Assembly (NCBI GenBank): GCA_964478335.1
Contig: CAYZIC010000001.1
Span: forward strand, 3,638-67,637
DNA length: 64,000 nt
Source: an uncultured Lentisphaeraceae bacterium
GTDB taxonomy: Bacteria > Verrucomicrobiota > Kiritimatiellia > RFP12 > DVOR01
Direction of reading: 5' to 3'
The notes under the pieces are model-generated. The model had not been told where the DNA came from. It was given only the letters and a program-made list of their open reading frames with translations, and made no database searches. Numbering within the stretch: position 1 is the stretch's first letter; each line of letters starts with the position of its first letter. The translations under genes were made by a program, and so were the position numbers. Shown here in pieces: positions 11,411-54,630 of the stretch.

Positions 11411-11414
11411 GCTT

Positions 11415-16012: not shown

Positions 16013-16082
16013 TACTGATACACGATGCCCAGAGTCACCATCTGGTGTCTCTGGGGCATTTCTTTTAAATAAGGATTAACTG

Positions 16083-16589: not shown

Positions 16590-16623
16590 GCACAGTTGCG
16601 TAAATGAGTGGGAAAGGCTTTAG

Positions 16624-18458: not shown

Positions 18459-18473
18459 GAAGAACATAAGACG

Positions 18474-22203: not shown

Positions 22204-23444
22204 TTACGGATATGCCGACCTATAAGTATGTGGGAGTCAAGGCGAGTGCGAAGGTTTCGGGCACGCTTGCAGCGGAGAATGAATCGCACCTCAGAGGGCT
22301 TTTGCGAGAGCAGGGGATTCTCCTTATTTCGGCCAAGCAGATCAAAATCTCGGGTAAGGATACGCTTAAAGTGCGTGCGAAATGGGAGCGTCACATCTCG
22401 AATTTTTTTATCAAACAAACGGAAATCGAGCAGGCGATGTTGCAACTGGTCATCCTGCTCAAAGGGGACATCGCCATTGTTGAAGCGTTTGAGCAGGCGG
22501 CCCGATTGGCTAAGGGCTACATGGCATCTGCTCTTTTTGAGGTCGCCTTAAGTGTCAAGCAGGGGAGCTCGCTCTCTAAGGCGATTCGATTGGCTTTACC
22601 ACAACTCGGTGAGCTCTATCAGGGATTGATTGGTGTGGGTGAGGTCAATGGCTCGCTGCCTCAAATGTTTGCCTATTGCGTGAGGTTGATGCAACAAAAA
22701 CGCAAAATGCGCAATAGCATGATCCGCGCGATGACCTACCCTGCGATAGTCGTCTTGCTAGGGGCTGGGGTTGGTTATTATGTGAGCACTGTTTCAATTC
22801 CGCAGATTGCATCGGTGATGGGGGGCGAGTCCGATAAGCTCCCCCCTGTGACTCGGGCTCTACTTGATACCAGTGACTGGATTGCAGACAAAGGATATAT
22901 GCTCATTATCTATCCTTGCCTCGTGACGATCATCCTACTAGTGATACGACTATTTAAGCCATGTGCTTTGGTAATGGATCACCTATTCCTTTGGATTCCG
23001 ATTATTGGCAAAGCGTTATGCTTCGCAGAGAATGCTCTCTTTAATAAAACCATGGGAATCTTGATCCGCAGTGGGATCTCTGTGGTCGAGTCGCTCGATC
23101 TGATCGAGGCGACGCTGACGAATGCTTTTTACAAGACTCAAATCGATGGTATCAGACGAGCTGTCCGCGCAGGTAAGATGTTTTCCGACGGATTGGCTCA
23201 ATCGGCGTTGCAGCGACTCTCGCCACTAACCCCTGCGCTGGTGCAAGTCGGTGAAAGCTCGGGAAATATGGATGAGGGCTTACACTATGTCGGAGAGTAT
23301 TATGAGGATGCTCTAGAGCGCCGTCTTGATTTGATGGCTAAACTGATCGAGCCAACTCTCGTCGTCGTCGTCGGGGGGATGGTTGCCTTTGTCTATGTCG
23401 CATTTTTCATGGGCATGGCCGCAATGAATACCGCTACACTTTAA
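22200..23444 (+). CDS. pilC: type IV pilus platform protein (GspF/PilC family)
   Basis: 414 aa with two repeated GspF-type domains and 3 TM helices. It overlaps the pilB stop. Confidence 0.8.
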   Translation: MITDMPTYKYVGVKASAKVSGTLAAENESHLRGLLREQGILLISAKQIKISGKDTLKVRAKWERHISNFFIKQTEIEQAMLQLVILLKGDIAIVEAFEQAARLAKGYMASALFEVALSVKQGSSLSKAIRLALPQLGELYQGLIGVGEVNGSLPQMFAYCVRLMQQKRKMRNSMIRAMTYPAIVVLLGAGVGYYVSTVSIPQIASVMGGESDKLPPVTRALLDTSDWIADKGYMLIIYPCLVTIILLVIRLFKPCALVMDHLFLWIPIIGKALCFAENALFNKTMGILIRSGISVVESLDLIEATLTNAFYKTQIDGIRRAVRAGKMFSDGLAQSALQRLSPLTPALVQVGESSGNMDEGLHYVGEYYEDALERRLDLMAKLIEPTLVVVVGGMVAFVYVAFFMGMAAMNTATL

Positions 23445-23479
23445 CCTCGTATAATTGATTACTAAATAAGGAACCTATC

Positions 23480-24079
23480 ATGATATCTAAATACACGTCT
23501 CTTATCCTCTTAGGCATGGCAACGATGGTTGCTATACCCATGGATCTCTCGGCACAAGAGCCCTCCAAGCCCAAGGCGCCTGTAGCACAGGCTAGCGCAA
23601 AAGTCTCGCAAAAGAATAAACCTGAGCCAGTGCCATTAGTCCAGCCTCCTCAAACGTTGCTCGACGCAGAGGGCAACCCAGAGCTCGAGCTCATTAACCC
23701 ATTTGCTAAGGGGCGCTCTCGTGAGGTTGAAACCGATGGCTCTATGGGGAGATTGCAACGAACGACCCTAGGTGAAGTCTCCAATGATTTTGCCTTGCTG
23801 GCGATCGTCGTTCCTGAAGATGATACAGTTGAGCCGATGGCTCTGATCCGTCAAAATCAGGATGCAGGCCCTATTTTAGTCCGGCCTGGCGATCTCATCC
23901 GTACCCGTGAGCCTACTAAGCGAGGCAATAGATGGGGGCGGAGCAAGGAAGAATTGGCACGAGAAAAGCTTAAAGGCAACTTCACTTTTTACCTCTACAT
24001 CAAAAATATTTTACCGACACATCTCGAGGTTTATCATAATAAGAAAAACCCCAATGAGACAACCATCATCACCCTCTAA
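23480..24079 (+). CDS. PilP-like periplasmic pilus assembly protein
   Basis: A signal peptide is present. The gene lies immediately upstream of the secretin. Confidence 0.4.
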   Translation: MISKYTSLILLGMATMVAIPMDLSAQEPSKPKAPVAQASAKVSQKNKPEPVPLVQPPQTLLDAEGNPELELINPFAKGRSREVETDGSMGRLQRTTLGEVSNDFALLAIVVPEDDTVEPMALIRQNQDAGPILVRPGDLIRTREPTKRGNRWGRSKEELAREKLKGNFTFYLYIKNILPTHLEVYHNKKNPNETTIITL

Positions 24080-24110
24080 TTTAAAAGAACCAAAGAGAAA
24101 GTTACACATT

Positions 24111-25916
24111 ATGTTAACGATAAGAAAAAACTTTACACGCATGGTCTTACTGGGACTAACGTGCCTAGCAATTGAGCAAGGTGTTGCTTTTGCGCAACCT
24201 ACTCCAAACGTACCTGGACGTAATCTACCGATGATTAAATCGCTCATGATTCGCGAAGCACCAGCAGAGTATGCGATGTGGCTACTCGGAGAAACATGGG
24301 GGCGACATATTGTAGTTAATGAGTCAGCAAAAAAGGTCAACGTCCGAGTCTTCCTCAGGGGGATTGACTGTGCGAGTGCACTCAAGGCGATCTGCCACGC
24401 TCATGGACTTTGGTATCGTGAAGATCCAGAGAGCGATGTCATCTACGTGCAAACTCTCGATGAATATATCCGCGGTAGCTCGCTCAACGATAAAAAGTTT
24501 GTCTCAACTGTCACAGTCGTCTATCCGCGAGCTGAAGATATCGCAGCAAGCTTGCAAGAGGTCTTTAAGGACATGGTTGCTTATACTGCGCCAGACGAGT
24601 ATAGCAACGACCCCAGCGATGATATTGACAAGGCTATTGAGCGAATGCAACAGCTCGCCGAGCAATCAACCATCGTCGAATCGAGCACATCGAGCACACG
24701 CAGCTCTAGTCGTAGCTCTAGCGGATCGAGTAGTCGGTCGCGTCGTAATAATGACAATGACGATGGCATTCAGCGCGTCCGGGAGTACTATGATGACCTT
24801 GAGTCTCTCAATAAGAATAACACCCAGATCACTGCGGGCTTAGATGGGCGCCCCACTCCGAGCCTGCCAGGAGTCGTCTTTCTCGCCGTCGAGCGTGCCT
24901 CCAATACCATCCTCTTGCGTTCCTCTGATAAAGAGGTCTTAAAGCAGGTTGAGGAGATGATTGCCACGCTCGATAGACCGACCTCTCAAGTACTCCTCGA
25001 AGTGCAAGTACTCGAACTCGACACCACGGACAAGGAAGCTCGCAAGCTGGATATCAACTTCCAGGGACATGGTGGCGACTACACTGGGTCATTCGCGGAT
25101 ACCGCTTTGGGTGCAAAATCGGGTGTTCTGCAGATGCTCAGGAAAGATCTTCAGTTGAAACTTGAATTTCTTGATAGCAATGACAAAGTGCGTCGCTTGG
25201 CAACACCGAGCCTCATGGTCGCAGACCTGGAAGCTTCTCGTATCTTTGTCGGATCAGAAACGACGTTGCTCATGAGTGTCGAGGAAACCGTGGTCACAGG
25301 GAGTGGTAATAACCCTACGACAACCGCTGCAAGTAACCCCGAAACCGATCGCCGTGATATCGGCACCACGCTCGTCATCACGCCCAAGATCCATGGCGAT
25401 GGCACTGTCACCGTCCGCATTATGCAAGAAAGCGCAAGCATTGGCGCTGAAAAGGACATTAACTACGGCACGGATGAGCAGGGAAATCAAAAGACCTTTA
25501 CCAGCACAGATGTCAAGAAGCAAACGATCTCCTCTACGGTCGTAGCCAAGTCTGGTGCAACAGTTTCTTTGGGTGGTCTTATTAGCCATGAAACGGTGGA
25601 TAGCGTCTCACGCGTGCCGATTCTGGCTGACCTCCCCTATATCGGGAAGTATCTCTTTGAGCGCACCAGCAAGGCTGAGATCGAAAAGGAGCTCATTGTC
25701 CTCATTCGCCCTTATGTCATCTTGACACCTGATCGCGCAGAAAAAATGAGTCAACATTTCCTGAATAGTGCAGTCAATGATTCCTTATTACTCAAAGAGA
25801 TCACCGAACGCATGGGGCATAAGGAGGCATTGCTTAAGCCAGAAATTCTCGAATTTATTCAACAGAGCACACCTATCGCACCCGTGACACCCGAATCAAA
25901 GAAAGATCCCCAATGA
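24111..25916 (+). CDS. pilQ: type IV pilus secretin (PilQ/GspD family)
   Basis: A signal peptide (MLTIRKNFTRMVLLGLTCLAIEQGVAFAQ) starts at the internal ATG at 24111. The C-terminal secretin domain is present (VPILADLPYIGKYLFERTSKAEIEKELIVLIRPYVI). A Ser-rich linker is also present. Confidence 0.8.
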   Translation: MLTIRKNFTRMVLLGLTCLAIEQGVAFAQPTPNVPGRNLPMIKSLMIREAPAEYAMWLLGETWGRHIVVNESAKKVNVRVFLRGIDCASALKAICHAHGLWYREDPESDVIYVQTLDEYIRGSSLNDKKFVSTVTVVYPRAEDIAASLQEVFKDMVAYTAPDEYSNDPSDDIDKAIERMQQLAEQSTIVESSTSSTRSSSRSSSGSSSRSRRNNDNDDGIQRVREYYDDLESLNKNNTQITAGLDGRPTPSLPGVVFLAVERASNTILLRSSDKEVLKQVEEMIATLDRPTSQVLLEVQVLELDTTDKEARKLDINFQGHGGDYTGSFADTALGAKSGVLQMLRKDLQLKLEFLDSNDKVRRLATPSLMVADLEASRIFVGSETTLLMSVEETVVTGSGNNPTTTAASNPETDRRDIGTTLVITPKIHGDGTVTVRIMQESASIGAEKDINYGTDEQGNQKTFTSTDVKKQTISSTVVAKSGATVSLGGLISHETVDSVSRVPILADLPYIGKYLFERTSKAEIEKELIVLIRPYVILTPDRAEKMSQHFLNSAVNDSLLLKEITERMGHKEALLKPEILEFIQQSTPIAPVTPESKKDPQ

Positions 25917-26590
25917 TCGATGATGCTCCATGTTGTCACGTGCTCCCCACATTGCTCAAGCATACACTCATCATTGTCTGTGTGGGCATGATGAGCAGTG
26001 GGTGCGCACTAACGCAACCAACACCTCCAAAGACTGAGCATCCCCCACTGTCTGAGCAAGAGGCTCTCCAGCAGGCCATTACGCTCGTCGCAGAGGGGCT
26101 CCCCAAACAAGCTGTGCCACAATTACTTGCGATACGGGACAATACTCAAGATCCCGCCATCAAAGCCAGTGCAATTCAAACATGCGCAAAGGCTTTTGCT
26201 GCACAAGGTGATTTTAAATCAGCAATCAATGTCCTCAGTCCCTTGCCCCCCCTTGTCTTGCGTGAGGAGCAGGCAATCTCAAATGCGATGGCTGGTGAAT
26301 ATTACTTGCGCATGGGGGCTTACAAGCTCGCAATCCCGTGCATTGAGCGAGCACTCTACAATGAGCTCCCTAAAAAGCACACAGATTGGCGGGCTGCGGC
26401 TTTCTTCAATTATGGTAAGTGCGCCCTCTCGCTCAATATGCCACGACGTGCGCAGGCTCTCTTTAGTGAAGCGCAACTACAATTTAAACACCTCAATCAC
26501 CCGCAAGCGGTCATACTGTGCCAAACGCTCCTCACAACAATCGACCGTGCAATACTCCAACAAGAAAGCCCCCCCCCCCATGTCAAATAG
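25913..26590 (+). CDS. TPR-repeat lipoprotein, PilF/PilW-like pilotin
   Basis: A lipobox (MSSGC) and TPR-like helical repeats are present. The gene overlaps the secretin stop and the pilT start. Confidence 0.5.
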   Translation: MIDDAPCCHVLPTLLKHTLIIVCVGMMSSGCALTQPTPPKTEHPPLSEQEALQQAITLVAEGLPKQAVPQLLAIRDNTQDPAIKASAIQTCAKAFAAQGDFKSAINVLSPLPPLVLREEQAISNAMAGEYYLRMGAYKLAIPCIERALYNELPKKHTDWRAAAFFNYGKCALSLNMPRRAQALFSEAQLQFKHLNHPQAVILCQTLLTTIDRAILQQESPPPHVK

Positions 26591-27644
26591 TGAAATCCTA
26601 CAAGGGCTCTTTGATCTAATCGTGGAGAAAAACGCATCCGACTTACATTGGTGCGAGGGCGAGCCATTGAGACTACGTATCCACGGACAGCTTGCCATCG
26701 TCGAGCACCCTCTCCCAGAAAACATCGAGTTTCAAGGCCTCACCGAAACGCTTATCGGGCACAAGACCTTTGATCGCTTTCTCGAAACACGCGAATATGA
26801 TGGAGCTATCACCATCGCAGATGGTCGCCGCCTCAGAGTCAATATCTATTTTAAGCGCGACAAGGTCGCGTGGGCCATTCGCCTCCTCCCCAATACCTTT
26901 ATGACCTTTGAGGAGCTCGGTCTCCCTCTCGACCTCTGCCAAGAAATTACTCAAATGCACCAAGGGCTCGTCTTGATCACTGGTGCTACAGGCTCTGGTA
27001 AGACGACTACTCTCGCATCGATCCTCAATCAAATCAACCAGCAGCGCCACGCACACATCTTCACAATCGAAGACCCCATTGAGTATATCCATACCTCCAA
27101 ACAATGCCTCGTCTCCCAGCGGGAAGTCGGCAGAGACACCCGATCATTTCACGATGCACTCAAAAGCGTCTTGAGAGAAGATCCCGATATCGTGCTGCTT
27201 GGCGAAATGAGAGACCGAGAATCGATGGATGCGGCTCTGACGCTTGCAGAAACTGGACACTTGACATTTGCCACACTCCACACCTCTGGTGCCGTCGAAT
27301 CTATCGCTCGTATTATTAGCAACTTTGATGCCATGGAGCAAGCTCAAGTGAGAGAGCGTATAGCAAGCAACTTAAAGATCGTGATTACCCAGCAACTCAT
27401 TCCCTGGTCTAACCATCAAGGTCGATCCCTTTGTGCCGAGATCATGGTCTCAACCAAGGCGATTCGCGCGATGATCCGGGATCAAAAAGAACGCCAACTC
27501 CCCGCACTCCTCGAGACGGGCACCGAGCAGGGGATGCTGACGATGGATCGATCGCTTGTGACTCTCGTCAAGAATCATCACATCACCCTTGATGAGGCTC
27601 TCCTCTACACGACTGACAAGGATGCCCTCCTCAGATTTGTTTAG
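26580..27644 (+). CDS. pilT: twitching motility/retraction ATPase PilT
   Basis: 355 aa from the internal ATG at 26580. Walker A GATGSGKTTT and the PilT-type motifs (EDPIEY, HLTFATLHT) are present. The upstream extension listed in the ORF track is an overlap artefact. Confidence 0.85.
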   Translation: MSNSEILQGLFDLIVEKNASDLHWCEGEPLRLRIHGQLAIVEHPLPENIEFQGLTETLIGHKTFDRFLETREYDGAITIADGRRLRVNIYFKRDKVAWAIRLLPNTFMTFEELGLPLDLCQEITQMHQGLVLITGATGSGKTTTLASILNQINQQRHAHIFTIEDPIEYIHTSKQCLVSQREVGRDTRSFHDALKSVLREDPDIVLLGEMRDRESMDAALTLAETGHLTFATLHTSGAVESIARIISNFDAMEQAQVRERIASNLKIVITQQLIPWSNHQGRSLCAEIMVSTKAIRAMIRDQKERQLPALLETGTEQGMLTMDRSLVTLVKNHHITLDEALLYTTDKDALLRFV

Positions 27645-27706: not shown

Positions 27707-28447
27707 ATGGAAACGTTTATTGCTTTGGTACTTTTTGTCGCATGGTTGCAAACATGCTTAAAATTCGCCTTGATTTCTCGCATATGGGGATTTTTATTTA
27801 TTGTGATTATCGGGTGTTTGCCCTTTGCCAATCACTCCCTATTGATCGCCAGCAGTTTGCAAGAGCAGATGGCGATGGTATGCTCGGAATCATTTTTACA
27901 AGCTTGGTGTGTCATTTTGGTGGTGCAGGAGTTTCTCGTCTTTATTATGGGGCTCTCGCTCTTATCCGCTTATCAGTTAGAAGAGAAAATACACTGGTGG
28001 AAAATGGTTGTTTTTGTGCCGTCATTTTTAATTTATCCTGGCGTGGTCTTTCTCCAGATGCAGAGCTATAATCACTTTGTGATGGCTGACTTTGATTGGG
28101 TTTGTGCTGGAGTAAGTGCCGTCTTGGTATTCACCTCTTTAGCTGTGATTGAGGGAATGCGTTGGTATAAACGCCACGATTTTGATGGTGCGATTTTATT
28201 ACTCTTTAATAGTGAGTTTGTCATTACTATATTAGCTGTCTTTTTACCAATTGCAGCGGTCGCATCTGACCGCCTGCAGATTGGTGAATGGCAGATTAAT
28301 TGGCAAGACGCTCAGCCATTACTTTATCTGTTAATCCCTGTATTGCTCTCTGCGTGTGGGTATGCGCTATGGCAATTGGGGGTGCAGATCTATTACCGCC
28401 GTATACATCATTATCATCAAGTGAATCAAAGGAATAACCATGTCTAA
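27707..28447 (+). CDS. polytopic membrane protein of unknown function (first gene of the chelatase operon)
   Basis: 246 aa with about 6 TM helices. The sequence is AT-rich relative to its flanks and overlaps the next gene start. Confidence 0.5.
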   Translation: METFIALVLFVAWLQTCLKFALISRIWGFLFIVIIGCLPFANHSLLIASSLQEQMAMVCSESFLQAWCVILVVQEFLVFIMGLSLLSAYQLEEKIHWWKMVVFVPSFLIYPGVVFLQMQSYNHFVMADFDWVCAGVSAVLVFTSLAVIEGMRWYKRHDFDGAILLLFNSEFVITILAVFLPIAAVASDRLQIGEWQINWQDAQPLLYLLIPVLLSACGYALWQLGVQIYYRRIHHYHQVNQRNNHV

Positions 28448-29027
28448 CATCACCCAAATTCTTAATCTAATCTCAAATAGTTTACTCCTGCCTGTTATCG
28501 TTTTACTCTTAATTGCTGTCGTTTATGCGCTGATTGCGTTGGGTGGGTTTTGTGCCAGTAGTATTATGCTTTTGATTGAGCAGCGCAAGAATCGCACATT
28601 CTTACGTCAGATCCATCGTGGGGAGCTAGATGTGGTCAATCAAGAGGATTGCTCTCTAGCCCGACACGTGGCTTACTTTATCGAGAAAGAATGGAATGAA
28701 ATCGAATGCGAAAAGTATATCTCCGAGCATCTCGAGCGTTATGATCGCGAACTTGAGCGGCATCGTTTTTTCATCAAGATCGGGCCGATGCTTGGTTTGA
28801 TGGGAACTCTCATCCCCATGGGACCGGCTTTAGCAGGCTTAGCCTCTGGAGATATTGGCTCAATGGCCTATAATATGCAAATCGCTTTTGCGACAACAGT
28901 ACTTGGATGCTTTATCGCAGGCGTGTCGGTCTTGATCATTTCGGTAAAGAAGCATCACTATACCGCTGAAATCTCAAACCTACGGTATCTATTAGACCGT
29001 CAATTGGAGGGAGGAGCACATGCGTAA
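28440..29027 (+). CDS. exbB: MotA/TolQ/ExbB-family proton channel protein
   Basis: The C-terminal motif GPMLGLMGTLIPMGPALAGL resembles the TolQ/ExbB GLLGTVxGM region. Three TM helices are present. Confidence 0.55.
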   Translation: MSNITQILNLISNSLLLPVIVLLLIAVVYALIALGGFCASSIMLLIEQRKNRTFLRQIHRGELDVVNQEDCSLARHVAYFIEKEWNEIECEKYISEHLERYDRELERHRFFIKIGPMLGLMGTLIPMGPALAGLASGDIGSMAYNMQIAFATTVLGCFIAGVSVLIISVKKHHYTAEISNLRYLLDRQLEGGAHA

Positions 29028-29364
29028 GGCAAGGCGATATGAGCCATTTACAGAGCAAGATGATGATAATCCACTGAGCAATTTGGTGAACTTATTTGAC
29101 GTTGCAATGGTTTTTGCCGTAGCACTCATGGTCGCATTTGCGATACAAAGCCGTATGTCCGAGTTTTTAACCGCTCAAGATGCGACATTTGTTAAAAATG
29201 CAGGCTCGCCAGACATGGAGATCATTGTCAAAAAAGATAACAAAGTCACACGATATAAATCAGAGCAATCGACCACTGGCAATGGCAAAGGCCAGCGCGT
29301 GGGAGTCGCTTATCGATTAGAATCAGGTGAAATTATTTATGTACCAGAAGGAGATACAAAGTAA
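29020..29364 (+). CDS. exbD: ExbD/TolR-like (DUF2149-like) small bitopic protein
   Basis: A single N-terminal TM (LVNLFDVAMVFAVALMVAF) resembles the ExbD anchor. The gene overlaps the exbB stop. Confidence 0.45.
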   Translation: MRKARRYEPFTEQDDDNPLSNLVNLFDVAMVFAVALMVAFAIQSRMSEFLTAQDATFVKNAGSPDMEIIVKKDNKVTRYKSEQSTTGNGKGQRVGVAYRLESGEIIYVPEGDTK

Positions 29365-29365
29365 A

Positions 29366-32300
29366 ATGAAAACTAAATTATTTAAACCATTACTCGCATG
29401 TGCTATTGTCTTGGCTATAGTGGGTGCGATTTTTGCCTACATTCGTTATGCGGCACCTACTCGCATCGCCTTTGTTGGATATCCTGAGTATATGATTGCA
29501 CAATCTTTGGATCAGCAGATTGACCCTGAGACGCAAGTCGATGTTGTTAAGTGGACAGAAAAGTCAGGTGCCGAGCTGCGTCACTATGATGCTATGATTT
29601 TCTTTGGTATGGGGCTTAAGTTTACCCCAGAGCAAGAGGTTATGATCAAATCGTTAAAAGCACCCCTATACGTAACTGCATCGACACGTCCCGAAACAAA
29701 ACTGGACACCTTTACCCCAGAGCAGTCAAAGCAAGTCCAAGCCTATTTGGGTGGTGGGCAGGCTAACTTTAAAGAGCTCCTACGCTACCTACGCTACACG
29801 GTCGATGGTAAGCGCATCAATGCTATTGCACCAAAGGCCCCCATTAAGATTGAGCATAAGCCATTTTTTCATGTCAAAGACCAAGATCAGTTTGCCAATT
29901 ATGACGACTATATGGACTTTTACAAAAAGAGCGGTCGATATAATGCCTCGCATCCCACAGTCTGTATCCTCAGTGGTAATGGCGGGGGCGCACTTGAGAT
30001 GCTGATTGATGCCTTTGAAAAACGTAACTTTAATGTCATAGGCACCTCGCTCTTTGGTTCTTTCCTTGAGGAAATGCAAAAAATAAAACCTGACCTTTTA
30101 ATCTATCAGCCACACGGACGCATTGGTCGCGGTGACCCAGACAAAACCTATGAGCTACTCAAGACGCTTAATGTCCCGTTACTCTGCCCAATCAAAGTCG
30201 GTCAACCCTATGATGAGTATCTCAAAGATCAGCGAGGGATGACTGGGGGGATGCTCAGTCAGAGCATCACGATGCCAGAGCTTGATGGCGGCATTGTCCC
30301 CTACGTCCTCTCCGCTCTTTACAAAAATAAACGAGGTCTTTATGTCTATAAAATGATTCCTGAGCGCCTCGAACGCTTTACTGAAATGGCCGTCAAACTC
30401 GTCGCGCTTAAGCGCAAGGCAAACTTTGACAAACGCATTGGTATCATTTATTACAAGGGACCAGGCAAAAACTCTACTGAAGCAGGCAGCATCGAGGTTG
30501 GAGATTCAATGCTCAATACCCTCCGCTATCTCAAAGAGCAAGGTTATGATACTGGAGACTTGCCCAAGTCTGTCGCCGCACTCCAAGAGCAGATCCAGCA
30601 AAATGGTGCCAATTTCAATACGTATGCCGCAGGTGCAAGAGAACGCTTTGTCAAGGAGGCCTCCATCCAAACGATTTCACCTGACACCTTTGCAAAGTGG
30701 GTCAAAAAAGCAATGCCAGATGACCTCTATGATGAGGTACGCAAACAATATGGCGACTTCCCAGGACAGTATTATGATGATGGACAAGGTAATCTCGCTC
30801 TCAGCCAGCTACGATTTGGTAAAATTGTCCTCATGCCACAAAGTGCCGCAGGTATCGGTAGCGATGATAATAAAATCGTGCATGGTGTCAAAATGGCACC
30901 TCCACACCATTACATTACCACCTATCTCTATCTCCAAAATAACGTTGATGCCATTATCCACTTTGGCACACACGGCAGCTTAGAGTTTACCCCGTGGAAA
31001 CAAGTCGCCCTCTCCTCATACGATTGGCCTGATGTCTTAATTGGATCGCTCCCACATTTCTATCTCTACGTCTGTAATAACATCGGTGAGGCTATTATCG
31101 CCAAGCGCCGTAGCTATGCCACAATGATGACACACCTCACGCCGCCTTTTATGCGTGCTGACGGATATGGCGAGCTCAATCAGCTAGACGAAAAAATCCA
31201 CTTCTACGCCAGCTGCGAGAATAGCGAGCTTAAGGCTGAATATGAAAAATCCATCATTGCTGTCGCCAAAGCTGAAAAATACGATGTCGACCTTAAGCTC
31301 TCTGACGACTTCCAAAAAGGCACCCTTACCCCAGAGGACTTCACCCGTCTACATGACTTTATTCATGAAATCAAGCTCTCCAAAGTCAATCGTGGCCTTT
31401 ATGTGATTGGCAGACCTTATACCCAAGAGGAGGCTCAAGAGACTGCGGGGCTCATGCTCGTCGATGTCATCGCTGATCAACTCTTTAAAAATGACCTGAC
31501 AGCGGGTAAAGTCCGCGAGGAGCAGCGCGATCAAGCTGGATTCTTTGAGCATCGCTACCGTGCCGCTGCACAAAAGCGCATCACAGACATCTTTGCAAAC
31601 CCAGACCGCTACCGCGATGGTAAGCTGAGTGTCAGACCGGCAGAAACCAAACCTGTCAAACCACACAAGATGCCAACTGCGACTATGTCCAAGAAAAAGC
31701 ACCCCTCTGCAGTACCAGCCAATATACCCGCTGCAATGAAAAAAATGATGGCTGCAAGGCAAGCTCCCCAAGCACCCAAACCTCAGCCCACCATTGAGCA
31801 ACAGACCCTCAAGGCAAAAGATGACCTCCTCATCTCTACTCCTCTTGAGCTCAAGACCATTGCCAATGCCCTCAATGGAGGATACATTATCCCAACATCA
31901 GGAGGTGACCCAATCGGCAATCCCGCCTGCGTACCTACGGGTAAAAATATGTATGGTATCGACCCTGAGCGCACCCCTACCAAAGAAAGCTTCGCCCTCG
32001 GCAAAAAGCTTGCCAAGCAGCTGATTCAAGCCAAGATTAAAGCCACTGGCAACTTCCCCAAAAAAGTAGCCTTTTCACTCTGGGGGGGCGAATTTATTCG
32101 TACACAGGGATCTGATATCGGTGAAATCTTTTATTTACTCGGGTGTGAGCCTATTTGGGATATGCGTGGCACCGTCAACGACGTACGACTGATCCCAATT
32201 GATCAACTCAAGCGTCCCCGTATCGATGTCATTGTACAGACCTCTGGGCAATTTCGAGGCGTTGCAACCAGTCGCATGCGCCTCATTGACAAAGCTGTCA

Positions 32301-33448
32301 AGCTCGCAGCTACTGACCCAGATACGCCTGATGCCAACAATTACGTTAAAGAGGGCTCTAGCATCATCGCTAAGTCTCTCATCAAAGCAGGCCTCACCCC
32401 AGAGAAAGCAAAAGCACTCGCCGATGCACGACTCTTTGGTGGAGTGGGTGGCAACTATGGCACCAATGCTCAAGGTATGATTCAATCTGGAGGCAAATGG
32501 GATGATCCAGACATTATTGGTGAGCTATACCTCAATAACATGGGTGCCCTGTATACCGATGACCACTGGGGAGAATTTGTGCCTGGTGCCTTCCGCGCGG
32601 CTGTACAAAATACCGATACTATCGTCCAATCCATCTCATCAAACTCATGGGGGACTCTTTCACTCGATCACGTCTATGAGTTTACTGGTGGTCTCAGCAG
32701 AGCTATTAAGACTGCAACTGGCAAAGATCCTGATGCCTACTTTAATAATATGCGCACGCCTGGACGAGCCAAAGTGCAAGAAGCTGGCGAAGCAATCATG
32801 ATCGAGGCTCGCGCATCTGTCCTCAATCCCAAATACCTTAAGGAAATGATGCAAGAGGGACCGGGCGGGGCAAGCCACTTCGCTGCCGTTTTCCAAAATA
32901 CATTTGGGTGGGAAGTCACCAAGCCGGACCTACTCGATCAACACCTCTGGGACGAGTATAAAAATGTCTTCATCGACGACGAACACAAACTTGGCATGCA
33001 AGAGTACTTTAATAAAAAGAATCCATATGCTTATCAAGAAATGACCGGTGTCATGCTCGAATCTGTCCGTAAAGGATATTGGCAACCCAATGAGCAAACC
33101 ATCAACAAGATCGCAAATATACACGCTGAGCTCGTTCGCAAGCATGGTGCTGGATGTAGTGGCTTTGTCTGTGACAATCCCAAACTACGCAAGATGATCG
33201 AAGCCGCCATCAAAGACCCACAAACGAAAGCCGACTACCAAAAAGCAATCAAAGAGGTCTTAGGGACTACCAAGAAACCAAAATCCCAAAAGGATAAGGA
33301 TGTTAAAGGGCAAGTCCTTAAAGAACAAAAGATCACTCCAGATCAAGTTACCAATAAAAACGAAAAAGCGATTTACGTAATAGGTGGCCTCGTCTTGCTA
33401 GCCATCCTACTCGTGCTGACAGGCACACGACGAAGCCGAGCCAAATAA
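29366..33448 (+). CDS. cobN: CobN/ChlH-family (metallo)chelatase large subunit, membrane-anchored at both termini
   Basis: The family-diagnostic motif IHFGTHGSLEFTPWKQ is present. The length (about 1360 aa) fits CobN/ChlH. TM segments sit at the N-terminus and the C-terminus. An RBS AGGAGA lies upstream. Confidence 0.75.
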   Translation: MKTKLFKPLLACAIVLAIVGAIFAYIRYAAPTRIAFVGYPEYMIAQSLDQQIDPETQVDVVKWTEKSGAELRHYDAMIFFGMGLKFTPEQEVMIKSLKAPLYVTASTRPETKLDTFTPEQSKQVQAYLGGGQANFKELLRYLRYTVDGKRINAIAPKAPIKIEHKPFFHVKDQDQFANYDDYMDFYKKSGRYNASHPTVCILSGNGGGALEMLIDAFEKRNFNVIGTSLFGSFLEEMQKIKPDLLIYQPHGRIGRGDPDKTYELLKTLNVPLLCPIKVGQPYDEYLKDQRGMTGGMLSQSITMPELDGGIVPYVLSALYKNKRGLYVYKMIPERLERFTEMAVKLVALKRKANFDKRIGIIYYKGPGKNSTEAGSIEVGDSMLNTLRYLKEQGYDTGDLPKSVAALQEQIQQNGANFNTYAAGARERFVKEASIQTISPDTFAKWVKKAMPDDLYDEVRKQYGDFPGQYYDDGQGNLALSQLRFGKIVLMPQSAAGIGSDDNKIVHGVKMAPPHHYITTYLYLQNNVDAIIHFGTHGSLEFTPWKQVALSSYDWPDVLIGSLPHFYLYVCNNIGEAIIAKRRSYATMMTHLTPPFMRADGYGELNQLDEKIHFYASCENSELKAEYEKSIIAVAKAEKYDVDLKLSDDFQKGTLTPEDFTRLHDFIHEIKLSKVNRGLYVIGRPYTQEEAQETAGLMLVDVIADQLFKNDLTAGKVREEQRDQAGFFEHRYRAAAQKRITDIFANPDRYRDGKLSVRPAETKPVKPHKMPTATMSKKKHPSAVPANIPAAMKKMMAARQAPQAPKPQPTIEQQTLKAKDDLLISTPLELKTIANALNGGYIIPTSGGDPIGNPACVPTGKNMYGIDPERTPTKESFALGKKLAKQLIQAKIKATGNFPKKVAFSLWGGEFIRTQGSDIGEIFYLLGCEPIWDMRGTVNDVRLIPIDQLKRPRIDVIVQTSGQFRGVATSRMRLIDKAVKLAATDPDTPDANNYVKEGSSIIAKSLIKAGLTPEKAKALADARLFGGVGGNYGTNAQGMIQSGGKWDDPDIIGELYLNNMGALYTDDHWGEFVPGAFRAAVQNTDTIVQSISSNSWGTLSLDHVYEFTGGLSRAIKTATGKDPDAYFNNMRTPGRAKVQEAGEAIMIEARASVLNPKYLKEMMQEGPGGASHFAAVFQNTFGWEVTKPDLLDQHLWDEYKNVFIDDEHKLGMQEYFNKKNPYAYQEMTGVMLESVRKGYWQPNEQTINKIANIHAELVRKHGAGCSGFVCDNPKLRKMIEAAIKDPQTKADYQKAIKEVLGTTKKPKSQKDKDVKGQVLKEQKITPDQVTNKNEKAIYVIGGLVLLAILLVLTGTRRSRAK

Positions 33449-33502
33449 TACATTATCAAGCAATGAGCTTGATAAAAAGTCACCCTGTCATCTGATCCCC
33501 AA

Positions 33503-33541
33503 AGTCCCAACTTGCGACTTGTCGCAAGTTGGGACTTTTTA
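33503..33541 (+). terminator. strong rho-independent terminator after cobN
   Basis: A perfect 16-bp stem (AGTCCCAACTTGCGAC/GTCGCAAGTTGGGACT) is followed by TTTTTAT. Confidence 0.8.
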
Positions 33542-33599: not shown

Positions 33600-33664
33600 C
33601 CCCTCCTATTCACCAGGAGGCTACTTCTCCTACCTATTTTACCCATTAAAATTAAACAAGAGCC
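33600..33664 (+). mobile_element. ISL3-family right-end remnant (copy 2): degenerate transposase 3' codons plus terminal IR
   Basis: TTTTACCCATTAAAATTAAACAAGAGCC is homologous to the IR after the transposase fragment at 34261. Confidence 0.5.
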
Positions 33665-33783
33665 TAACAAATCGCCTCTTGTGCGATTATAGTGGGTGAC
33701 AGAGCAAAGAGCAGACCCCATGCCACGCCTGAGACCGAGACCAGTACTACCCCGCCCCATGATCCATTGCAATGGGATTACAA

Positions 33784-33875
33784 TTTGCCTTGCAATCCAT
33801 TGATCATTTGCCTTGTAACCCAAAAGACGAATGCCTTGCAACCCAAAAGAAGAATGCCTTGCAACCTATTTATGA
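33784..33875 (+). repeat. four tandem degenerate 23-bp repeats with core TGCCTTGCAA
   Basis: Core occurrences start at 33786, 33809, 33832 and 33855, giving an exact 23-bp period. A 12-bp perfect palindrome CCATTGCAATGG lies just upstream at 33766-33777. Confidence 0.6.
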
Positions 33876-34005
33876 CACCTTAGCAGACAGAGAGTAAAAC
33901 AGCACCATCGACACCGTCACCCAGACGGAGTCGACAGATTATTGCCATTCGATTAATCGCACCCTTAAGGATTTTTGAGGGTGGGCACTGGGGAGAGTAC
34001 GTCCA

Positions 34006-34030
34006 ACCCATTAAAATCGAACAAGATCCG
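34006..34030 (+). mobile_element. ISL3-family IR remnant (copy 3)
   Basis: AACCCATTAAAATCGAACAAGATCC is a degenerate copy of the same IR. Confidence 0.4.
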
Positions 34031-34084
34031 AATGGTTAAGCAACCATCGATCGATCGTTTTATTAAAACGCTAAGAAAGCACTT

Positions 34085-34290
34085 CAAGAGGTATCATTCA
34101 ATACTTTAACAGCTATATTACCAATGCAATTACCGAGGGTTTTAACTCTAAGATTCAAAACCTAAAGGCCAATGCAAAAGGCTTTCGTAACTTTGAAAAC
34201 TACAGGACTACAATCCTATTCTTTTGTGGAAAACTGGACCTAAGACCACATTTTACCCATCAAAATCACACAAGAGCCAAAAAACTTAAA
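34085..34290 (+). pseudogene. ISL3-family transposase C-terminal fragment with terminal IR (copy 4)
   Basis: The fragment translates to RGIIQYFNSYITNAITEGFNSKIQNLKANAKGFRNFENYRTTILFFCGKLDL, the conserved ISL3 Tnp C-terminus. It is followed by IR TTTTACCCATCAAAATCACACAAGAGCC. An upstream frameshift and stop interrupt it, and no N-terminal part is present. Confidence 0.7.
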
Positions 34291-34408
34291 AAAACGGCAA
34301 CTTAGTTATTTTTATTGTTGATTTTATTATATTGTTTTGCTATCCAAAAAGTAGCTTGTGAAACATATTTCGAAGGAATAACATTCTTCATTAACTGTTG
34401 GAGGTAGT

Positions 34409-35560
34409 ATGAAGTCCATTATTCTGTCACTCTTAATATCTGCTCTTACCTATCAAGTCTTGCACGCAGATTGGCCGTTAAAAGCCTACAAGATTTGTTG
34501 GGATTGTGGAGAGGGAATCCCAGCTGGTCAGACCACGTGCCCTTGCAAGCAAGGTGCTCGCAGACCATCCTCCCCTGCTACCAAGCAAGCACATCTGGCT
34601 CCCAATCGGCAAAAGTCAACCGCATCAAAAGACACATACAAACCGGCCTCCCAGGAAACCCTCTGCATTTCAGCCCCCAATCTGCCGTCAACACCTCCTA
34701 AGGGACGCTTTGTCAAAATTACGATTCCGAATGGTGGCCCCCTGTCATTAGCAGAGGTCGAGGTCATCTCTAATGGTGTCAATGTCGCACGACAAGGCAC
34801 CGCAACGCAAAGCACAACGGGATACAATGCTCACCCCAACTTAGCGATTGATGGCTGCAATGATGGATTTTTCGCGCACGGCTCCGCGACTCACACCTAT
34901 AATAGAGACAAGTCTCCTTATTGGCAACTCGACCTCAAGCAGGCCTACCCCATTGAGAAAATTGTCATCTGGAATCGTAATGATCGCGGTTGCTCCAAAC
35001 GGCTCGCCAACTACACCGTTACCATCAGCGATGACAAGCACGCTGTGGTCTGGGGTGGGAAACTGATTCCCCACGCTGCAATTTATGACACGCATATCCC
35101 CACCACAACCAAGCAAACGTATCAGCCTGCAAAGATGCGTCTACCTCAATATATTCGCATTTCACTCCCCCACCGAGGTATTATCTCCCTGGCGGAGATC
35201 GAAGTATTCTCCAATGGGGTCAATGTCGCTGGGAGCGGTACAGTACGTCAAAGTAGCACCTATATGATAGGCCAAGCCAAGCTCGCTATTGATGGCAACA
35301 AAAACGGCGACTATAACAAGGCTCTGTCTCACACACACCATGGAGACCCCAGCTCGACGCCCTATTGGCAACTAGCCCTAAAAGGCCCCATGCCCATTGA
35401 GAAGATCGTCATTTGGAATCGTTCAGACCCCGGTCTACACTCGCGACTCAACGGCATGCTCCTCACAATCCTAGATCGTGACTTTAAGCCAATCTGGCAA
35501 GAGGCGGTGGAGAAACCATCTCAATTTGACACGGTCTTTACATTTCAACCCAAAAGGTAG
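34409..35560 (+). CDS. secreted protein with two tandem F5/8 type C (discoidin)-like / galactose-binding-like domains
   Basis: A signal peptide is present. An internal duplication of about 150 aa is present (LSLAEVEVISNGVNVARQGTATQSTT... versus ISLAEIEVFSNGVNVAGSGTVRQSST..., each ending in PIEKIVIWNR). Confidence 0.6.
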   Translation: MKSIILSLLISALTYQVLHADWPLKAYKICWDCGEGIPAGQTTCPCKQGARRPSSPATKQAHLAPNRQKSTASKDTYKPASQETLCISAPNLPSTPPKGRFVKITIPNGGPLSLAEVEVISNGVNVARQGTATQSTTGYNAHPNLAIDGCNDGFFAHGSATHTYNRDKSPYWQLDLKQAYPIEKIVIWNRNDRGCSKRLANYTVTISDDKHAVVWGGKLIPHAAIYDTHIPTTTKQTYQPAKMRLPQYIRISLPHRGIISLAEIEVFSNGVNVAGSGTVRQSSTYMIGQAKLAIDGNKNGDYNKALSHTHHGDPSSTPYWQLALKGPMPIEKIVIWNRSDPGLHSRLNGMLLTILDRDFKPIWQEAVEKPSQFDTVFTFQPKR

Positions 35561-35586
35561 GTGAGACGCTTGCTCCTCTGTACAAG

Positions 35587-36651
35587 GTGATGGTCACCCC
35601 CAAAAAACGCCCAGTTGCGCAGGACTCCCCACGCCCAAAGAGTGTCGATGCGGTGCCCTCCCATCAACCCGCTCCCAAAGCCACAAAACAAAAGATACAC
35701 AAGAAATATTTATCCACCTTTAGGCAGACACTGAATAAAGCAAGCCGTCTCTTTGTGCAAACGAGGTCACCTTTTGAGAAGTTTCTCTACGCCTGTCAGA
35801 TACGGGGTATCTATGCCGCACTGGATGCCACCAAACACTACGAGGCGGTTAATCATTTAATCGAAACCACGCTCCTGCAAAAGATCAAGCACGGCTACTT
35901 ACCATGCGAAAAGTGTCACGGCAAAGGCTATTTTGGCTCCAACGCTAAGTCAAGCCAATGTAAAATCTGTAATGGCAGAGGCTATCGTTCCCTTAAATTG
36001 GTTGAGTATGATGCGCCTATTTTGATTCAGGGGTGGCAAGACGCAATCAAAACGATCTCGGCTAAATTAAAATCAGCGTCAACCAATCAGAGCTACTCCT
36101 CAGAAAATGTGACCTACCCAAAGGATATCATCTATGACCATCAATCTACATCTGGAAAGCTCTTCACTCAATTGACTCAGAGCGCTCTGGTAATCTGCCC
36201 AACATGCCATGGTGGTAAGATTATCTACTGTACAAAATGTAACAATTCGGGGAAGATTAATTGTTACGAGTGTGGCGGACGGGGCTATCAAAAGACATGC
36301 AGCTGCCGGTACAGATGTAATCACTGCGAGGGCAAAGGTAAGATAAAATGTTCGCGCTGCCCACCGCTGAGAGGATCTATTTGCAAGTCGTGCTCTGGTG
36401 CGGGATTTCGACCTGCTTGCACGCAGTGCAACGGTACAGGGTTGATATTGTGCACGAGCTGCAACAATACCAACCCCCACTGCAGCAAATGCAGGGGCAC
36501 AGGCTTTGTATTATGCAGGAAATGTAATGGTGCTGCTACCGCGCGCACTAATCTTGGCGCAAGGCACCAAGGATTTTGCGAGCTTGAGCCAGGTTGTAGC
36601 GTTCGGCTTGGGCTTGCCCCCCTCGTAAGCAGAGGGCGCTGTCTGCAATGA
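35587..36651 (+). CDS. cysteine-rich protein with about 14 CxxC(xGxG) zinc-knuckle repeats (DnaJ-CR-like)
   Basis: A basic N-terminus is followed by repeated CxxCxGxG units (CEKCHGKG, CKICNGRG, CPTCHGGK, CYECGGRG, CNHCEGKG, CKSCSGAG, CTQCNGTG, CSKCRGTG...). The 3' end overlaps a convergent minus-strand gene by about 100 bp. Confidence 0.6.
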   Translation: MMVTPKKRPVAQDSPRPKSVDAVPSHQPAPKATKQKIHKKYLSTFRQTLNKASRLFVQTRSPFEKFLYACQIRGIYAALDATKHYEAVNHLIETTLLQKIKHGYLPCEKCHGKGYFGSNAKSSQCKICNGRGYRSLKLVEYDAPILIQGWQDAIKTISAKLKSASTNQSYSSENVTYPKDIIYDHQSTSGKLFTQLTQSALVICPTCHGGKIIYCTKCNNSGKINCYECGGRGYQKTCSCRYRCNHCEGKGKIKCSRCPPLRGSICKSCSGAGFRPACTQCNGTGLILCTSCNNTNPHCSKCRGTGFVLCRKCNGAATARTNLGARHQGFCELEPGCSVRLGLAPLVSRGRCLQ

Positions 36652-50232: not shown

Positions 50233-50296
50233 CGCCTAATACTCCTTGACAAAAAAATAAATAAATGATACCTTAGCTCCAAAAAAAAGGAGCTCC

Positions 50297-50488: not shown

Positions 50489-50499
50489 CCGCTACGCTG

Positions 50500-54628: not shown

Positions 54629-54630
54629 TT

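What the first reader, a model, noticed from the sequence alone, without database searches (positions are those of the whole stretch)
27707..33448. Membrane-anchored CobN/ChlH-family chelatase co-operonic with an ExbB/ExbD-like proton-channel pair on a low-GC island
Four overlapping genes (membrane protein, MotA/TolQ/ExbB-like, ExbD/TolR-like, 1360-aa CobN-like with the IHFGTHGSLEF motif and TM anchors at both termini) form one operon, ending in a very strong terminator. There are no ChlI/ChlD-type AAA+ partner subunits here, so the energy source for chelation or de-chelation could be the proton-motive-force transducer instead. CobN-like HmuS proteins in Bacteroidota heme-uptake loci are thought to remove iron from heme anaerobically. 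This operon could be a PMF-coupled (de)chelatase for heme or corrinoid salvage, complementary to the upstream HemN-like/ECF operon. The region from about 27.7 to 33.4 kb is visibly AT-richer than the flanking core genes and is followed by IS remnants, which suggests horizontal acquisition.
Basis: partly seen in the sequence, partly recalled or inferred. Interest (0 to 1): 0.75.

Follow-up and report, generated by a model that had tools for sequence, protein, structure and literature searches.

The report
Receptor-less heme dechelatase operon (hmuTUVS)
This is a Lentisphaerota version of the Bacteroides "Hmu" heme-iron harvesting system, a membrane-anchored enzyme that pulls iron out of heme plus three membrane partners; it lacks the outer-membrane receptor and hemophore, which suggests the proton-channel-like partners work with the enzyme itself.

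Summary
Four tightly packed + strand genes (27707-33448) end in a strong hairpin terminator. The region is the AT-richest stretch of its size in the window, and ISL3 remnants follow it.

The large protein is not a CobN or ChlH biosynthetic chelatase. It is an HmuS-type heme dechelatase: 979 bits to B. thetaiotaomicron HmuS (PDB 9d26), against 396 for ChlH and 329 for CobN. All published HmuS signature residues are kept, and so are both terminal membrane anchors.

The three upstream genes are homologues of HmuT, HmuU (MotA/ExbB family) and HmuV (DUF2149, with an invariant membrane-embedded Asp). So this is the known hmu module in permuted order (TUVS instead of YR-STUV), and it has no HmuY or HmuR.

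In 66 evaluable loci from several phyla, U/V sit next to S in 59. Y/R are adjacent only in Bacteroidota and in one Castellaniella locus, and in none of 29 Lentisphaerota loci.

Corrinoid salvage and recent cross-phylum transfer are not supported. Verdict: a new variant of a known system, of moderate interest.

The parts
27707..28447 (+). hmuT-like gene: polytopic inner-membrane protein (246 aa, about 7 hydrophobic segments)
   Evidence: No Pfam or NCBIfam hit. An HMM of Bacteroidota HmuT proteins hits it at E 2.8e-13. hhalign of Lentisphaerota T against Bacteroidota HmuT gives probability 99.3%, E 2.5e-20, over 199 columns. Hydrophobic segments.
28440..29027 (+). hmuU-like gene: divergent MotA/TolQ/ExbB-family proton-channel subunit (195 aa)
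   Evidence: Pfam MotA_ExbB E 1.4e-11. phmmer E 1e-24 to 1e-40 against the genes downstream of hmuS-hmuT in Bacteroidota. The GPMLGLMGT and AFATTV motifs are invariant or nearly so in 38 homologues. The family profile weakly matches solved TolQ (E 0.014), MotA (0.021) and ExbB (0.3).
29020..29364 (+). hmuV-like gene: DUF2149 protein (114 aa) with a single membrane helix carrying an invariant Asp (N24-L25-F26-D27) and a small beta-rich periplasmic domain
   Evidence: Pfam DUF2149 E 5e-29. Homologous to Bacteroidota HmuV, E 1e-26 to 1e-36. NLFD is invariant in 34 sequences from 4 or more phyla. No ExbD Pfam hit and no PDB sequence hit.
29366..33448 (+). hmuS-like gene: membrane-anchored CobN/ChlH-superfamily heme dechelatase homologue (1360 aa from ATG 29366; the longest ORF starts at GTG 29327)
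   Evidence: PDB 9d26 HmuS 979 bits, against ChlH 396 and CobN 329. The equivalents of Met-79, His-254, His-538, Glu-577, Asp-1208 and His-1209 are conserved. The short Met-rich insertion has 5 Met in 58 aa. Hydrophobic anchors lie at residues 1-19+ and 1335-1353, with basic residues on the N- and C-terminal sides. All NCBIfam CobN/BchH equivalog scores are far below cutoff.
33501..33538 (+). intrinsic terminator hairpin ending the operon
   Evidence: Perfect 17-bp stem with a 4-nt loop and a U-rich tail. dG -28.2 kcal/mol, z -7.45.
33642..34300 (+). IS debris bounding the operon: three copies of an IS-end-like 23-bp repeat (33642-33664, 34007-34029, 34256-34278) and an ISL3 transposase C-terminal fragment (34075-34300)
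   Evidence: Repeat search: 4 matches in the window against 0 expected; the fourth is at 9662-9684. NCBIfam transpos_ISL3 E 1.8e-12, matching profile positions 324-369 of 370. Alignment of the copies.

Best explanation
The operon is a Lentisphaerota hmuT-hmuU-hmuV-hmuS module, the inner-membrane half of the Bacteroidota Hmu heme-iron harvesting system, without the hemophore HmuY and the TonB-dependent receptor HmuR. Shown by homology: the 1360-aa protein is an HmuS-family enzyme. It keeps the experimentally essential catalytic His (His-538 in B. theta), its Glu partner, the second His/Asp dyad, the Met/His ligands of the regulatory heme site, a short Met-rich insertion and both terminal anchors. 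Inferred: it faces the periplasm. This follows from the positive-inside rule, with K-rich residues before the first helix and RRSRAK after the last, and it matches the topology reported for the Bacteroidota proteins. There it would convert ferrous heme to protoporphyrin IX plus Fe(II) anaerobically. Inferred: HmuU (MotA/ExbB family) and HmuV (single helix with an invariant Asp, like ExbD Asp25, TolR Asp23 or MotB Asp32) form a proton-conducting stator-type unit. Together with the polytopic HmuT, this unit works on or with HmuS at the inner membrane. It could gate or deform the enzyme through its membrane anchors, or move heme, porphyrin or iron. Energising an outer-membrane receptor looks less likely. 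Which of the inner-membrane roles applies is unknown.
For: S is identified as HmuS and not CobN/ChlH. HmuS function and signature residues come from PMC12583661. T, U and V are homologous to HmuT, U and V. The Asp in the V membrane helix is invariant, and U belongs to the MotA/ExbB family with conserved helix motifs. Co-occurrence: U/V are adjacent to S in 33/33 evaluable Bacteroidota loci, 22/29 Lentisphaerota loci, 3/3 other PVC or unclassified loci, plus Chlorobium and Castellaniella. HmuR/HmuY are adjacent in 27/33 Bacteroidota loci and in Castellaniella, but in 0/29 Lentisphaerota loci and in no other PVC locus. There was no TonB-dependent-receptor hit in 642 kb of Lentisphaerota DNA. Gene order differs between phyla (TUVS against STUV) while the four-gene association persists. 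The heme context in the window is a ChuW/HutW-type gene, an ECF transporter and a flavodoxin at 9977-14812. A Fur-family regulator and a flavodoxin sit directly upstream of a homologous operon in L083. The literature regards HmuTUV roles as unresolved.
Against: There is no experiment on any Lentisphaerota protein. Identity to characterised HmuS is only about 37-38%, below the 50% and six-gene-operon criterion used to define bona fide HmuS. V has no detectable sequence similarity to ExbD, and its structural similarity could not be assessed because the model was too poor. Purified soluble HmuS lacking its anchors makes PPIX with NADH in vitro, so TUV are not chemically required (PMC12583661). 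Seven Lentisphaerota paralogues lack adjacent TUV. A related CobN-like/ExbB-like/DUF2149 operon in P. aeruginosa is zinc-regulated, so substrates in the wider family may not all be heme. The rest of the source genome could not be searched for a receptor, TonB or AAA+ partners.
Confidence: 0.7

Rival explanations
1. HmuU/HmuV are a dedicated ExbB/ExbD-like pair that, with a TonB encoded elsewhere, energises an outer-membrane heme receptor also encoded elsewhere. This is the model drawn for Bacteroides. HmuS merely shares the operon.
For: It is the published working model for B. thetaiotaomicron. In Bacteroidota (27/33 loci) and Castellaniella a TonB-dependent receptor gene is adjacent.
Against: No receptor hit in 29 evaluable Lentisphaerota loci or in 642 kb of Lentisphaerota sequence. 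No TonB-like gene in the operon; T is a polytopic membrane protein. V is DUF2149, not ExbD. Six Bacteroidota loci and Chlorobium keep STUV without Y/R. HmuS and HmuV homologues are reported in Archaea, which have no outer membrane (PMC10100974 Table 3 and PMC12583661 discussion).
Confidence: 0.13
2. The large protein acts on another metal-tetrapyrrole or metal chelate, for example a zinc- or cobalt-related substrate as suspected for the Zur-regulated P. aeruginosa PA1922-PA1925 operon, or corrinoid salvage.
For: Public records name the close homologues 'cobaltochelatase subunit CobN'. A CobN-like/ExbB-like/hypothetical operon is induced by zinc starvation in P. aeruginosa. B. fragilis CobN-like paralogues sit in btu loci (PMC6460266). 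Fur-family regulators include Zur, so the L083 neighbour does not settle the question.
Against: Met-79 and His-254, the ligands of the HmuS-specific heme site, are kept here. Castellaniella and some other PVC sequences replace the Met with Arg, Cys or His. Scores against the CobN/BchH models are half of cutoff or less. The neighbourhood is heme-related, with a ChuW/HutW-type gene.
Confidence: 0.1
3. It is a biosynthetic class I chelatase large subunit (CobN/ChlH/BchH) whose ATPase partners are encoded elsewhere.
For: Pfam CobN-Mg_chel covers the full length, and it shares the six-domain architecture with CobN and ChlH (PMC12583661).
Against: Terminal membrane anchors and a predicted periplasmic orientation put it away from ATP. 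All equivalog models are far below cutoff. It is much closer to HmuS. No AAA+ partner in 64 kb. It is conserved next to membrane proteins, not next to cob or bch genes.
Confidence: 0.03

Closest known systems
Bacteroidota hmuYRSTUV heme-utilisation operon (B. thetaiotaomicron BT_0491-0498, P. gingivalis PG1551-1556), with HmuS heme dechelatase (PDB 9d26)
   Same: All four inner-membrane components are homologous. These are S (979 bits; catalytic and heme-site residues, Met-rich insertion and both anchors kept), T (hhalign 99.3%), U (30-41% identity) and V (44-56% identity, invariant NLFD).
   Different: No hmuY and no hmuR. The order is TUVS instead of STUV. S is only about 37-38% identical and about 100 aa shorter, with a Met-rich insertion about half the length seen in Bacteroides. 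T is very divergent (about 12% identity). The host phylum is Lentisphaerota, whereas the system is described as characteristic of Bacteroidota (about 99% of detected operons, PMC10100974).
ExbB-ExbD / TolQ-TolR / MotA-MotB proton-driven 5:2 stator units
   Same: U is a MotA/ExbB-family protein with ExbB-like topology and conserved helix-2 and helix-3 motifs. V has the ExbD/TolR/MotB layout: a short basic N-terminus, one helix with an invariant Asp, and a small periplasmic domain. The two genes are translationally coupled.
   Different: V shows no detectable homology to the ExbD, TolR or MotB periplasmic domains. There is no TonB-, TolA- or FliG-type output partner in the operon. The candidate outputs are a polytopic membrane protein (T) and a doubly anchored periplasmic enzyme (S). 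Stoichiometry is unknown.
Class I ATP-dependent chelatases (ChlH-ChlI-ChlD, CobN-CobS-CobT)
   Same: Same superfamily and six-domain fold for the large subunit. The His/Glu and His/Asp active-site dyads are shared.
   Different: The reaction runs in reverse (metal removal). The location is the periplasmic face of the membrane. There are no AAA+ motor subunits; the conserved partners are membrane proteins instead.
P. aeruginosa Zur-regulated PA1922-PA1925 (TonB-dependent receptor, CobN-like, ExbB/ExbD-like, hypothetical)
   Same: As annotated in the papers read, it combines a CobN-like protein with an ExbB/ExbD-like protein and a small hypothetical protein.
   Different: It includes a receptor, responds to zinc, and has no known function. 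Its sequences were not compared here, so the relation rests on the literature (PMC4542158).

Membership tests
HmuS heme dechelatase family (Nath et al. 2025) | Closer to HmuS than to CobN or ChlH | tested here: met
   979 bits to 9d26 HmuS, against 396 for ChlH and 329 for CobN. It falls in one tree with Bacteroidota HmuS from complete operons.
HmuS heme dechelatase family (Nath et al. 2025) | Site-1 heme axial ligands Met-79 and His-254 | tested here: met
   They align to M and H in FFGMGL and YQPHGR. His is invariant in 75 homologues, and Met is present in 62 of 75, including the window protein.
HmuS heme dechelatase family (Nath et al. 2025) | Catalytic dyads His-538/Glu-577 and His-1209/Asp-1208 | tested here: met
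   FGTHGS, NIGEA and SLDHVYEF are conserved, and the residues are invariant in 75 sequences.
HmuS heme dechelatase family (Nath et al. 2025) | Methionine-rich insertion in domain IV | tested here: met
   A 58-aa insertion with 5 Met (8.6% against 2.9% overall), or 81 aa in alignment terms. The published range has a mean of 82 aa and a minimum of 22.
HmuS heme dechelatase family (Nath et al. 2025) | N- and C-terminal transmembrane anchors, catalytic body in the periplasm | tested here: met
   Hydrophobic segments at both ends with flanking basic residues. The orientation is inferred from the positive-inside rule, not measured.
HmuS heme dechelatase family (Nath et al. 2025) | Operational criterion of the authors: at least 50% identity to B. 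theta HmuS and a complete six-gene operon | tested here: not met
   About 37-38% identity to Bacteroidota HmuS, and no hmuY or hmuR.
HmuS heme dechelatase family (Nath et al. 2025) | Heme to PPIX + Fe(II) activity | not testable with these tools
   Needs biochemistry.
hmuYRSTUV operon | hmuT, hmuU and hmuV adjacent to hmuS | tested here: met
   The order is permuted to TUVS.
hmuYRSTUV operon | HmuY hemophore and HmuR TonB-dependent receptor in the operon | tested here: not met
   No hit to HmuY or HmuR HMMs anywhere in the window or in 37 other Lentisphaerota loci. The seeds were confirmed by Pfam.
hmuYRSTUV operon | Induction by iron or heme limitation | not testable with these tools
   The only evidence is indirect: a Fur-family gene directly upstream of a homologous operon in L083.
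ExbB-ExbD/TolQ-TolR/MotA-MotB stator units | MotA/TolQ/ExbB-family channel subunit | tested here: met
   Pfam E 1.4e-11, above the gathering score, with weak profile matches to solved TolQ, MotA and ExbB.
ExbB-ExbD/TolQ-TolR/MotA-MotB stator units | Partner with a single helix bearing the essential Asp | tested here: met
   D27 in the NLFD motif is invariant in 34 sequences. Equivalence to ExbD Asp25 rests on established knowledge, not on an alignment.
ExbB-ExbD/TolQ-TolR/MotA-MotB stator units | Partner homologous to ExbD, TolR or MotB | tested here: not met
   No ExbD Pfam hit at E<10. The V profile finds nothing in the PDB. The AF2 model has pLDDT 61, so Foldseek matches are meaningless.
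ExbB-ExbD/TolQ-TolR/MotA-MotB stator units | 5:2 assembly and proton-driven movement | not testable with these tools
   Needs structure determination or biophysics.
Class I chelatases CobNST / ChlHID | Scores as a CobN or BchH/ChlH equivalog | tested here: not met
   The best scores are 632 against a cutoff of 1248 (CobN) and 602 against 829 (BchH).
Class I chelatases CobNST / ChlHID | AAA+ partner subunits (ChlI/ChlD or CobS/CobT) | tested here: inconclusive
   None in the 64-kb window or in homologous loci. The rest of the genome is not available.

The most novel reading that the evidence does not exclude
In the HmuS branch of the class I chelatase superfamily, the cytoplasmic AAA+ motor (ChlI/ChlD, CobS/CobT) has been replaced by a proton-driven MotA/ExbB-type stator (HmuU/HmuV, with HmuT). 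This stator would act through the two membrane anchors of the periplasmic enzyme to drive or gate iron removal from heme. That would make it a PMF-powered dechelatase and a new kind of output for the 5:2 motor family. In Lentisphaerota, which appear to lack TonB-dependent receptors near these operons, a conserved prepilin-like protein (or, in this window, a whole type IV pilus/type II secretion-like cluster directly upstream) might take over heme capture from HmuY/HmuR.
Probability: 0.2. Interest if true: 0.85.

Novelty: new variant of a known kind. Interest (0 to 1): 0.5.

Why it matters
HmuS was shown only in 2025 to be the long-sought anaerobic heme dechelatase. The roles of its operon partners HmuT, HmuU and HmuV are still openly unresolved, and the system is treated as a Bacteroidota speciality. 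A naturally receptor-less, hemophore-less hmuTUVS operon in another phylum amounts to a natural deletion experiment. It suggests that TUV belong functionally to the dechelatase or inner-membrane step, and it gives a simpler four-gene system for heterologous reconstitution. It also extends anaerobic heme-iron harvesting to gut and rumen Lentisphaerota. If the proton-motor reading holds, it would explain how a periplasmic relative of ATP-driven chelatases is energised where there is no ATP.

Tried and rejected
(1) An AlphaFold2 model of V built from 35 close homologues had pLDDT 61. Foldseek against the PDB gave no hit below E 0.4, so it is unusable for an ExbD comparison.

(2) A single-sequence AlphaFold2 model of T had pLDDT 50.6, also unusable. 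A deeper alignment could not be supplied because the word-indexed protein search returned only T itself.

(3) The V family profile found nothing in PDB sequences. U as a single sequence found nothing relevant, and only the U family profile gave weak TolQ, MotA and ExbB matches.

(4) E. coli ExbD and TolR sequences recalled from memory, used as seeds against all locus ORFs, gave no hits. No real ExbD alignment was therefore available for a profile-profile test.

(5) An exact look-up of the window's own protein on public contigs found no record, and cluster look-ups gave no names. The source organism is inferred only from its best homologues, which are Lentisphaeria and Victivallis at 57-58% identity.

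(6) Codon-usage (RSCU) distance does not single out the operon, so codon usage does not corroborate the GC signal as evidence of recent transfer.

(7) The promoter scan around the operon start gave no more sites than shuffled sequence. Two small hairpins in the 62-nt gap upstream of hmuT are not significant (z -1.9).

(8) Considered and rejected: a biosynthetic CobN/ChlH, corrinoid salvage, and recent acquisition from Bacteroidota (tree).


Full report
OBSERVATION. The four + strand ORFs exist as described. They are 27707-28447 (246 aa), 28440-29027 (195 aa), 29020-29364 (114 aa) and a large ORF ending at 33448. Pfam assigns MotA_ExbB to the second (E 1.4e-11), DUF2149 to the third (E 5e-29) and CobN-Mg_chel to the fourth (E 3.6e-281). 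The first has no hit.

The first three genes overlap by 8 nt each. The fourth most likely starts at ATG 29366, one base after the stop of gene 3. It has GGAG 12 nt upstream, and the Met at position 14 of the long ORF is invariant among homologues. A perfect 17-bp hairpin (33501-33538, dG -28.2 kcal/mol, z -7.45) with a U-rich tail ends the operon.

The operon has 46.2% GC against 51.8% for the window, which places it in the lowest 0.5% of same-size windows. Its GC3 is 0.37-0.48 against 0.578 +/- 0.044 for the other genes. Its codon-usage distance is unremarkable.

Downstream lie a C-terminal fragment of an ISL3 transposase (34075-34300, E 1.8e-12) and three copies of a 23-bp IS-end-like repeat. 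A fourth copy sits at 9662-9684, just after tRNA-Thr.

WHAT THE LARGE PROTEIN IS. Against solved structures, the best match by far is the B. thetaiotaomicron HmuS heme dechelatase (9d26, 979 bits). ChlH scores 396 and CobN 329. Every NCBIfam CobN/BchH equivalog model scores at half its cutoff or less.

Nath et al. (EMBO J 2025, PMC12583661) showed that HmuS is a membrane-bound enzyme that converts heme to PPIX and Fe(II) anaerobically. They defined the family by several features: Met-79 and His-254 (a non-substrate heme site), the essential His-538 with Glu-577, the His-1209/Asp-1208 dyad, a Met-rich insertion, and terminal transmembrane helices.

All of these residues align to identical residues in the window protein. 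In 75 full-length relatives the His, Glu and Asp residues are invariant, and Met-79 is Met in 62, including the window protein. The insertion is short (58 aa with 5 Met) but within the published range (mean 82 aa, minimum 22).

Hydrophobic anchors sit at both ends. Basic residues lie on the N-terminal side of the first anchor and the C-terminal side of the last. By the positive-inside rule this places the body in the periplasm, where there is no ATP. This topology is an inference.

THE THREE SMALL GENES. I fetched 80 genomic loci encoding relatives of the large protein, plus three more by exact look-up. The window's U and V proteins are clear homologues of the genes that follow hmuS-hmuT in Bacteroidota (E 1e-24 to 1e-40). 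A Bacteroides hominis locus with Pfam-confirmed HmuY and a TonB-dependent receptor served as anchor.

The first gene is a distant HmuT homologue. A Bacteroidota HmuT HMM hits it at E 2.8e-13, and profile-profile comparison gives 99.3% probability (E 2.5e-20). So the operon is hmuT-hmuU-hmuV-hmuS.

V carries an invariant N-L-F-D in its single helix across four or more phyla. This is the layout of ExbD, TolR and MotB, which have an essential Asp in their single helix (established knowledge). No homology to ExbD is detectable by sequence, however, and structure prediction was too poor to test it.

U has ExbB-like topology and conserved helix motifs. Its family profile weakly matches solved TolQ, MotA and ExbB.

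COMPARATIVE PATTERN. The source is a Lentisphaerota (Victivallales-like) bacterium, judged from its best homologues at 57-58% identity. In a neighbour-joining tree, the Lentisphaerota proteins form one clade that contains the window protein. Other PVC sequences lie between them and Bacteroidota. The operon is therefore old in this lineage and not a recent import from Bacteroidota.

Gene order is T-U-V-S in Lentisphaerota, Planctomycetota, Verrucomicrobiota and one unclassified MAG. It is S-T-U-V in Bacteroidota, Chlorobium and Castellaniella.

Among evaluable loci, U/V are adjacent to S in 33/33 Bacteroidota, 22/29 Lentisphaerota, 3/3 other PVC or unclassified, and in Chlorobium and Castellaniella. 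HmuY/HmuR are adjacent in 27/33 Bacteroidota and in Castellaniella, but in 0/29 Lentisphaerota and in none of the other PVC loci. A receptor HMM that picks up unrelated TonB-dependent receptors in Bacteroidota loci found nothing in 642 kb of Lentisphaerota DNA.

The seven Lentisphaerota loci without TUV are paralogues nested in the same clade. Some come from genomes that also have a TUVS copy.

MECHANISM. The best-supported reading is a periplasmic HmuS-type heme dechelatase working with an inner-membrane HmuTUV unit. The S-TUV link survives a change of gene order and the complete loss of receptor and hemophore, so TUV most likely act at the inner membrane with S.

This differs from the model drawn for Bacteroides, in which HmuU/V energise HmuR with a TonB encoded elsewhere. 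It agrees with the more cautious statements of the P. gingivalis groups, who regard the roles of TUV as open.

It is coherent with the periplasmic location and the invariant Asp, but it is not shown. Soluble HmuS turns over heme in vitro with NADH (PMC12583661), so TUV may instead gate substrates or move heme, PPIX or iron. I put the general coupling of TUV to S at about 0.6 and PMF-driven dechelation proper at about 0.2.

ALTERNATIVES. The receptor-energising model needs unseen partners elsewhere in the genome. A non-heme substrate is conceivable. P. aeruginosa has a zinc-regulated CobN-like/ExbB-like operon of unknown function, and some relatives replace Met-79. The window protein, however, keeps the heme ligands and sits in a heme-related neighbourhood. 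A biosynthetic CobN/ChlH role is effectively excluded.

NOVELTY. The hmu operon and HmuS activity are known. The published survey found about 99% of hmu operons in Bacteroidetes, and no paper in the library links HmuS with Lentisphaerota. The new points are the phylum, the permuted and receptor-less architecture, and the inference this allows about HmuTUV. I rate it a new variant of a known kind, with interest about 0.5.

LIMITS. Only 64 kb of the source genome is available. The T and V structures could not be modelled with confidence. All functional statements rest on homology and gene context.

Noticed in passing
window 9977-14812 (and 16083-16589): A second, unrelated anaerobic heme route lies on the same strand 13 kb upstream. 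It comprises a ChuW/HutW-type radical SAM heme-degrading methyltransferase (TIGR04107, 398 bits against a cutoff of 400), an ECF transporter (Trep_Strep/MptD-type S component, CbiQ T component, fused double ATPase) and a BilS-like flavodoxin. A second flavodoxin sits at 16083-16589.
   Followed up: partly
window 14912-27644: A complete type IV pilus/type II secretion-like cluster sits directly upstream of hmuT with only a 62-nt gap. It has three prepilin-type N_methyl proteins, a GspE/PilB-like ATPase, a PilC/GspF platform protein, a secretin, a TPR protein and a PilT retraction ATPase. Whether it is functionally linked to heme uptake is unknown.
   Followed up: partly
L001-L041 and L083 (e.g. 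L041:4333-5616, L083:5137-6323): About 20 of 22 Lentisphaerota TUVS loci carry a conserved prepilin-like protein (about 250-310 aa, N_methyl motif) and a small secreted or anchored protein of about 145 aa directly upstream of hmuT. The TUV-less paralogues L014, L015, L017 and L025 keep this pair directly upstream of S. The window operon lacks both. They occupy the operon positions that HmuY and HmuR hold in Bacteroidota.
   Followed up: partly
L082:6700-7977 (=L009), L031:1021-2148, L002, L007, L008, L039: Secreted FMN_bind (PF04205) proteins recur next to HmuS-like genes in six Lentisphaerota loci, once immediately upstream of a TUV-less paralogue. They could be a periplasmic electron donor, which bears on the unexplained NADH dependence of HmuS.
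   Followed up: partly
L083:4104-5109; L018:7036-7533; L062:4777-5316; L051:5506-6006: A long-chain flavodoxin lies near hmu loci in two Lentisphaerota and two Bacteroidota loci. In L083 a Fur-family regulator sits between the flavodoxin and the operon.
   Followed up: partly
window 8867-8942, 9662-9684 and 33642-34300: A fourth copy of the IS-end-like repeat lies at 9662, just after tRNA-Thr. The 24.6-kb block holding the ChuW/ECF genes, the pilus cluster and hmuTUVS is thus bracketed by same-orientation IS ends next to a tRNA gene. Its GC (49.4%) is below both flanks (52.9% and 54.1%), so it may be a genomic island.
   Followed up: partly
window 50000-64000 (- strand): A run of about ten minus-strand ORFs has no Pfam hits and ends in a lambda-family phage portal protein (62243-63898, E 2.4e-27). 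This is probably part of a prophage.
   Followed up: no
window 34409-36651: Immediately after the IS debris come a protein with two F5/8 type C (discoidin) domains and a protein with DnaJ-type CXXCXGXG zinc-finger motifs. Neither is related to the operon.
   Followed up: no
L040, L049, L050, L053, L062, L064, L068, L075, L035, L076 (HmuS position 79): One Bacteroidota/Chlorobium subclade and two PVC sequences have His instead of Met at the site-1 heme ligand, which predicts bis-His ligation. Castellaniella and L023 have Arg, and the Isosphaeraceae sequence has Cys. This hints at functional subtypes within the family.
   Followed up: no
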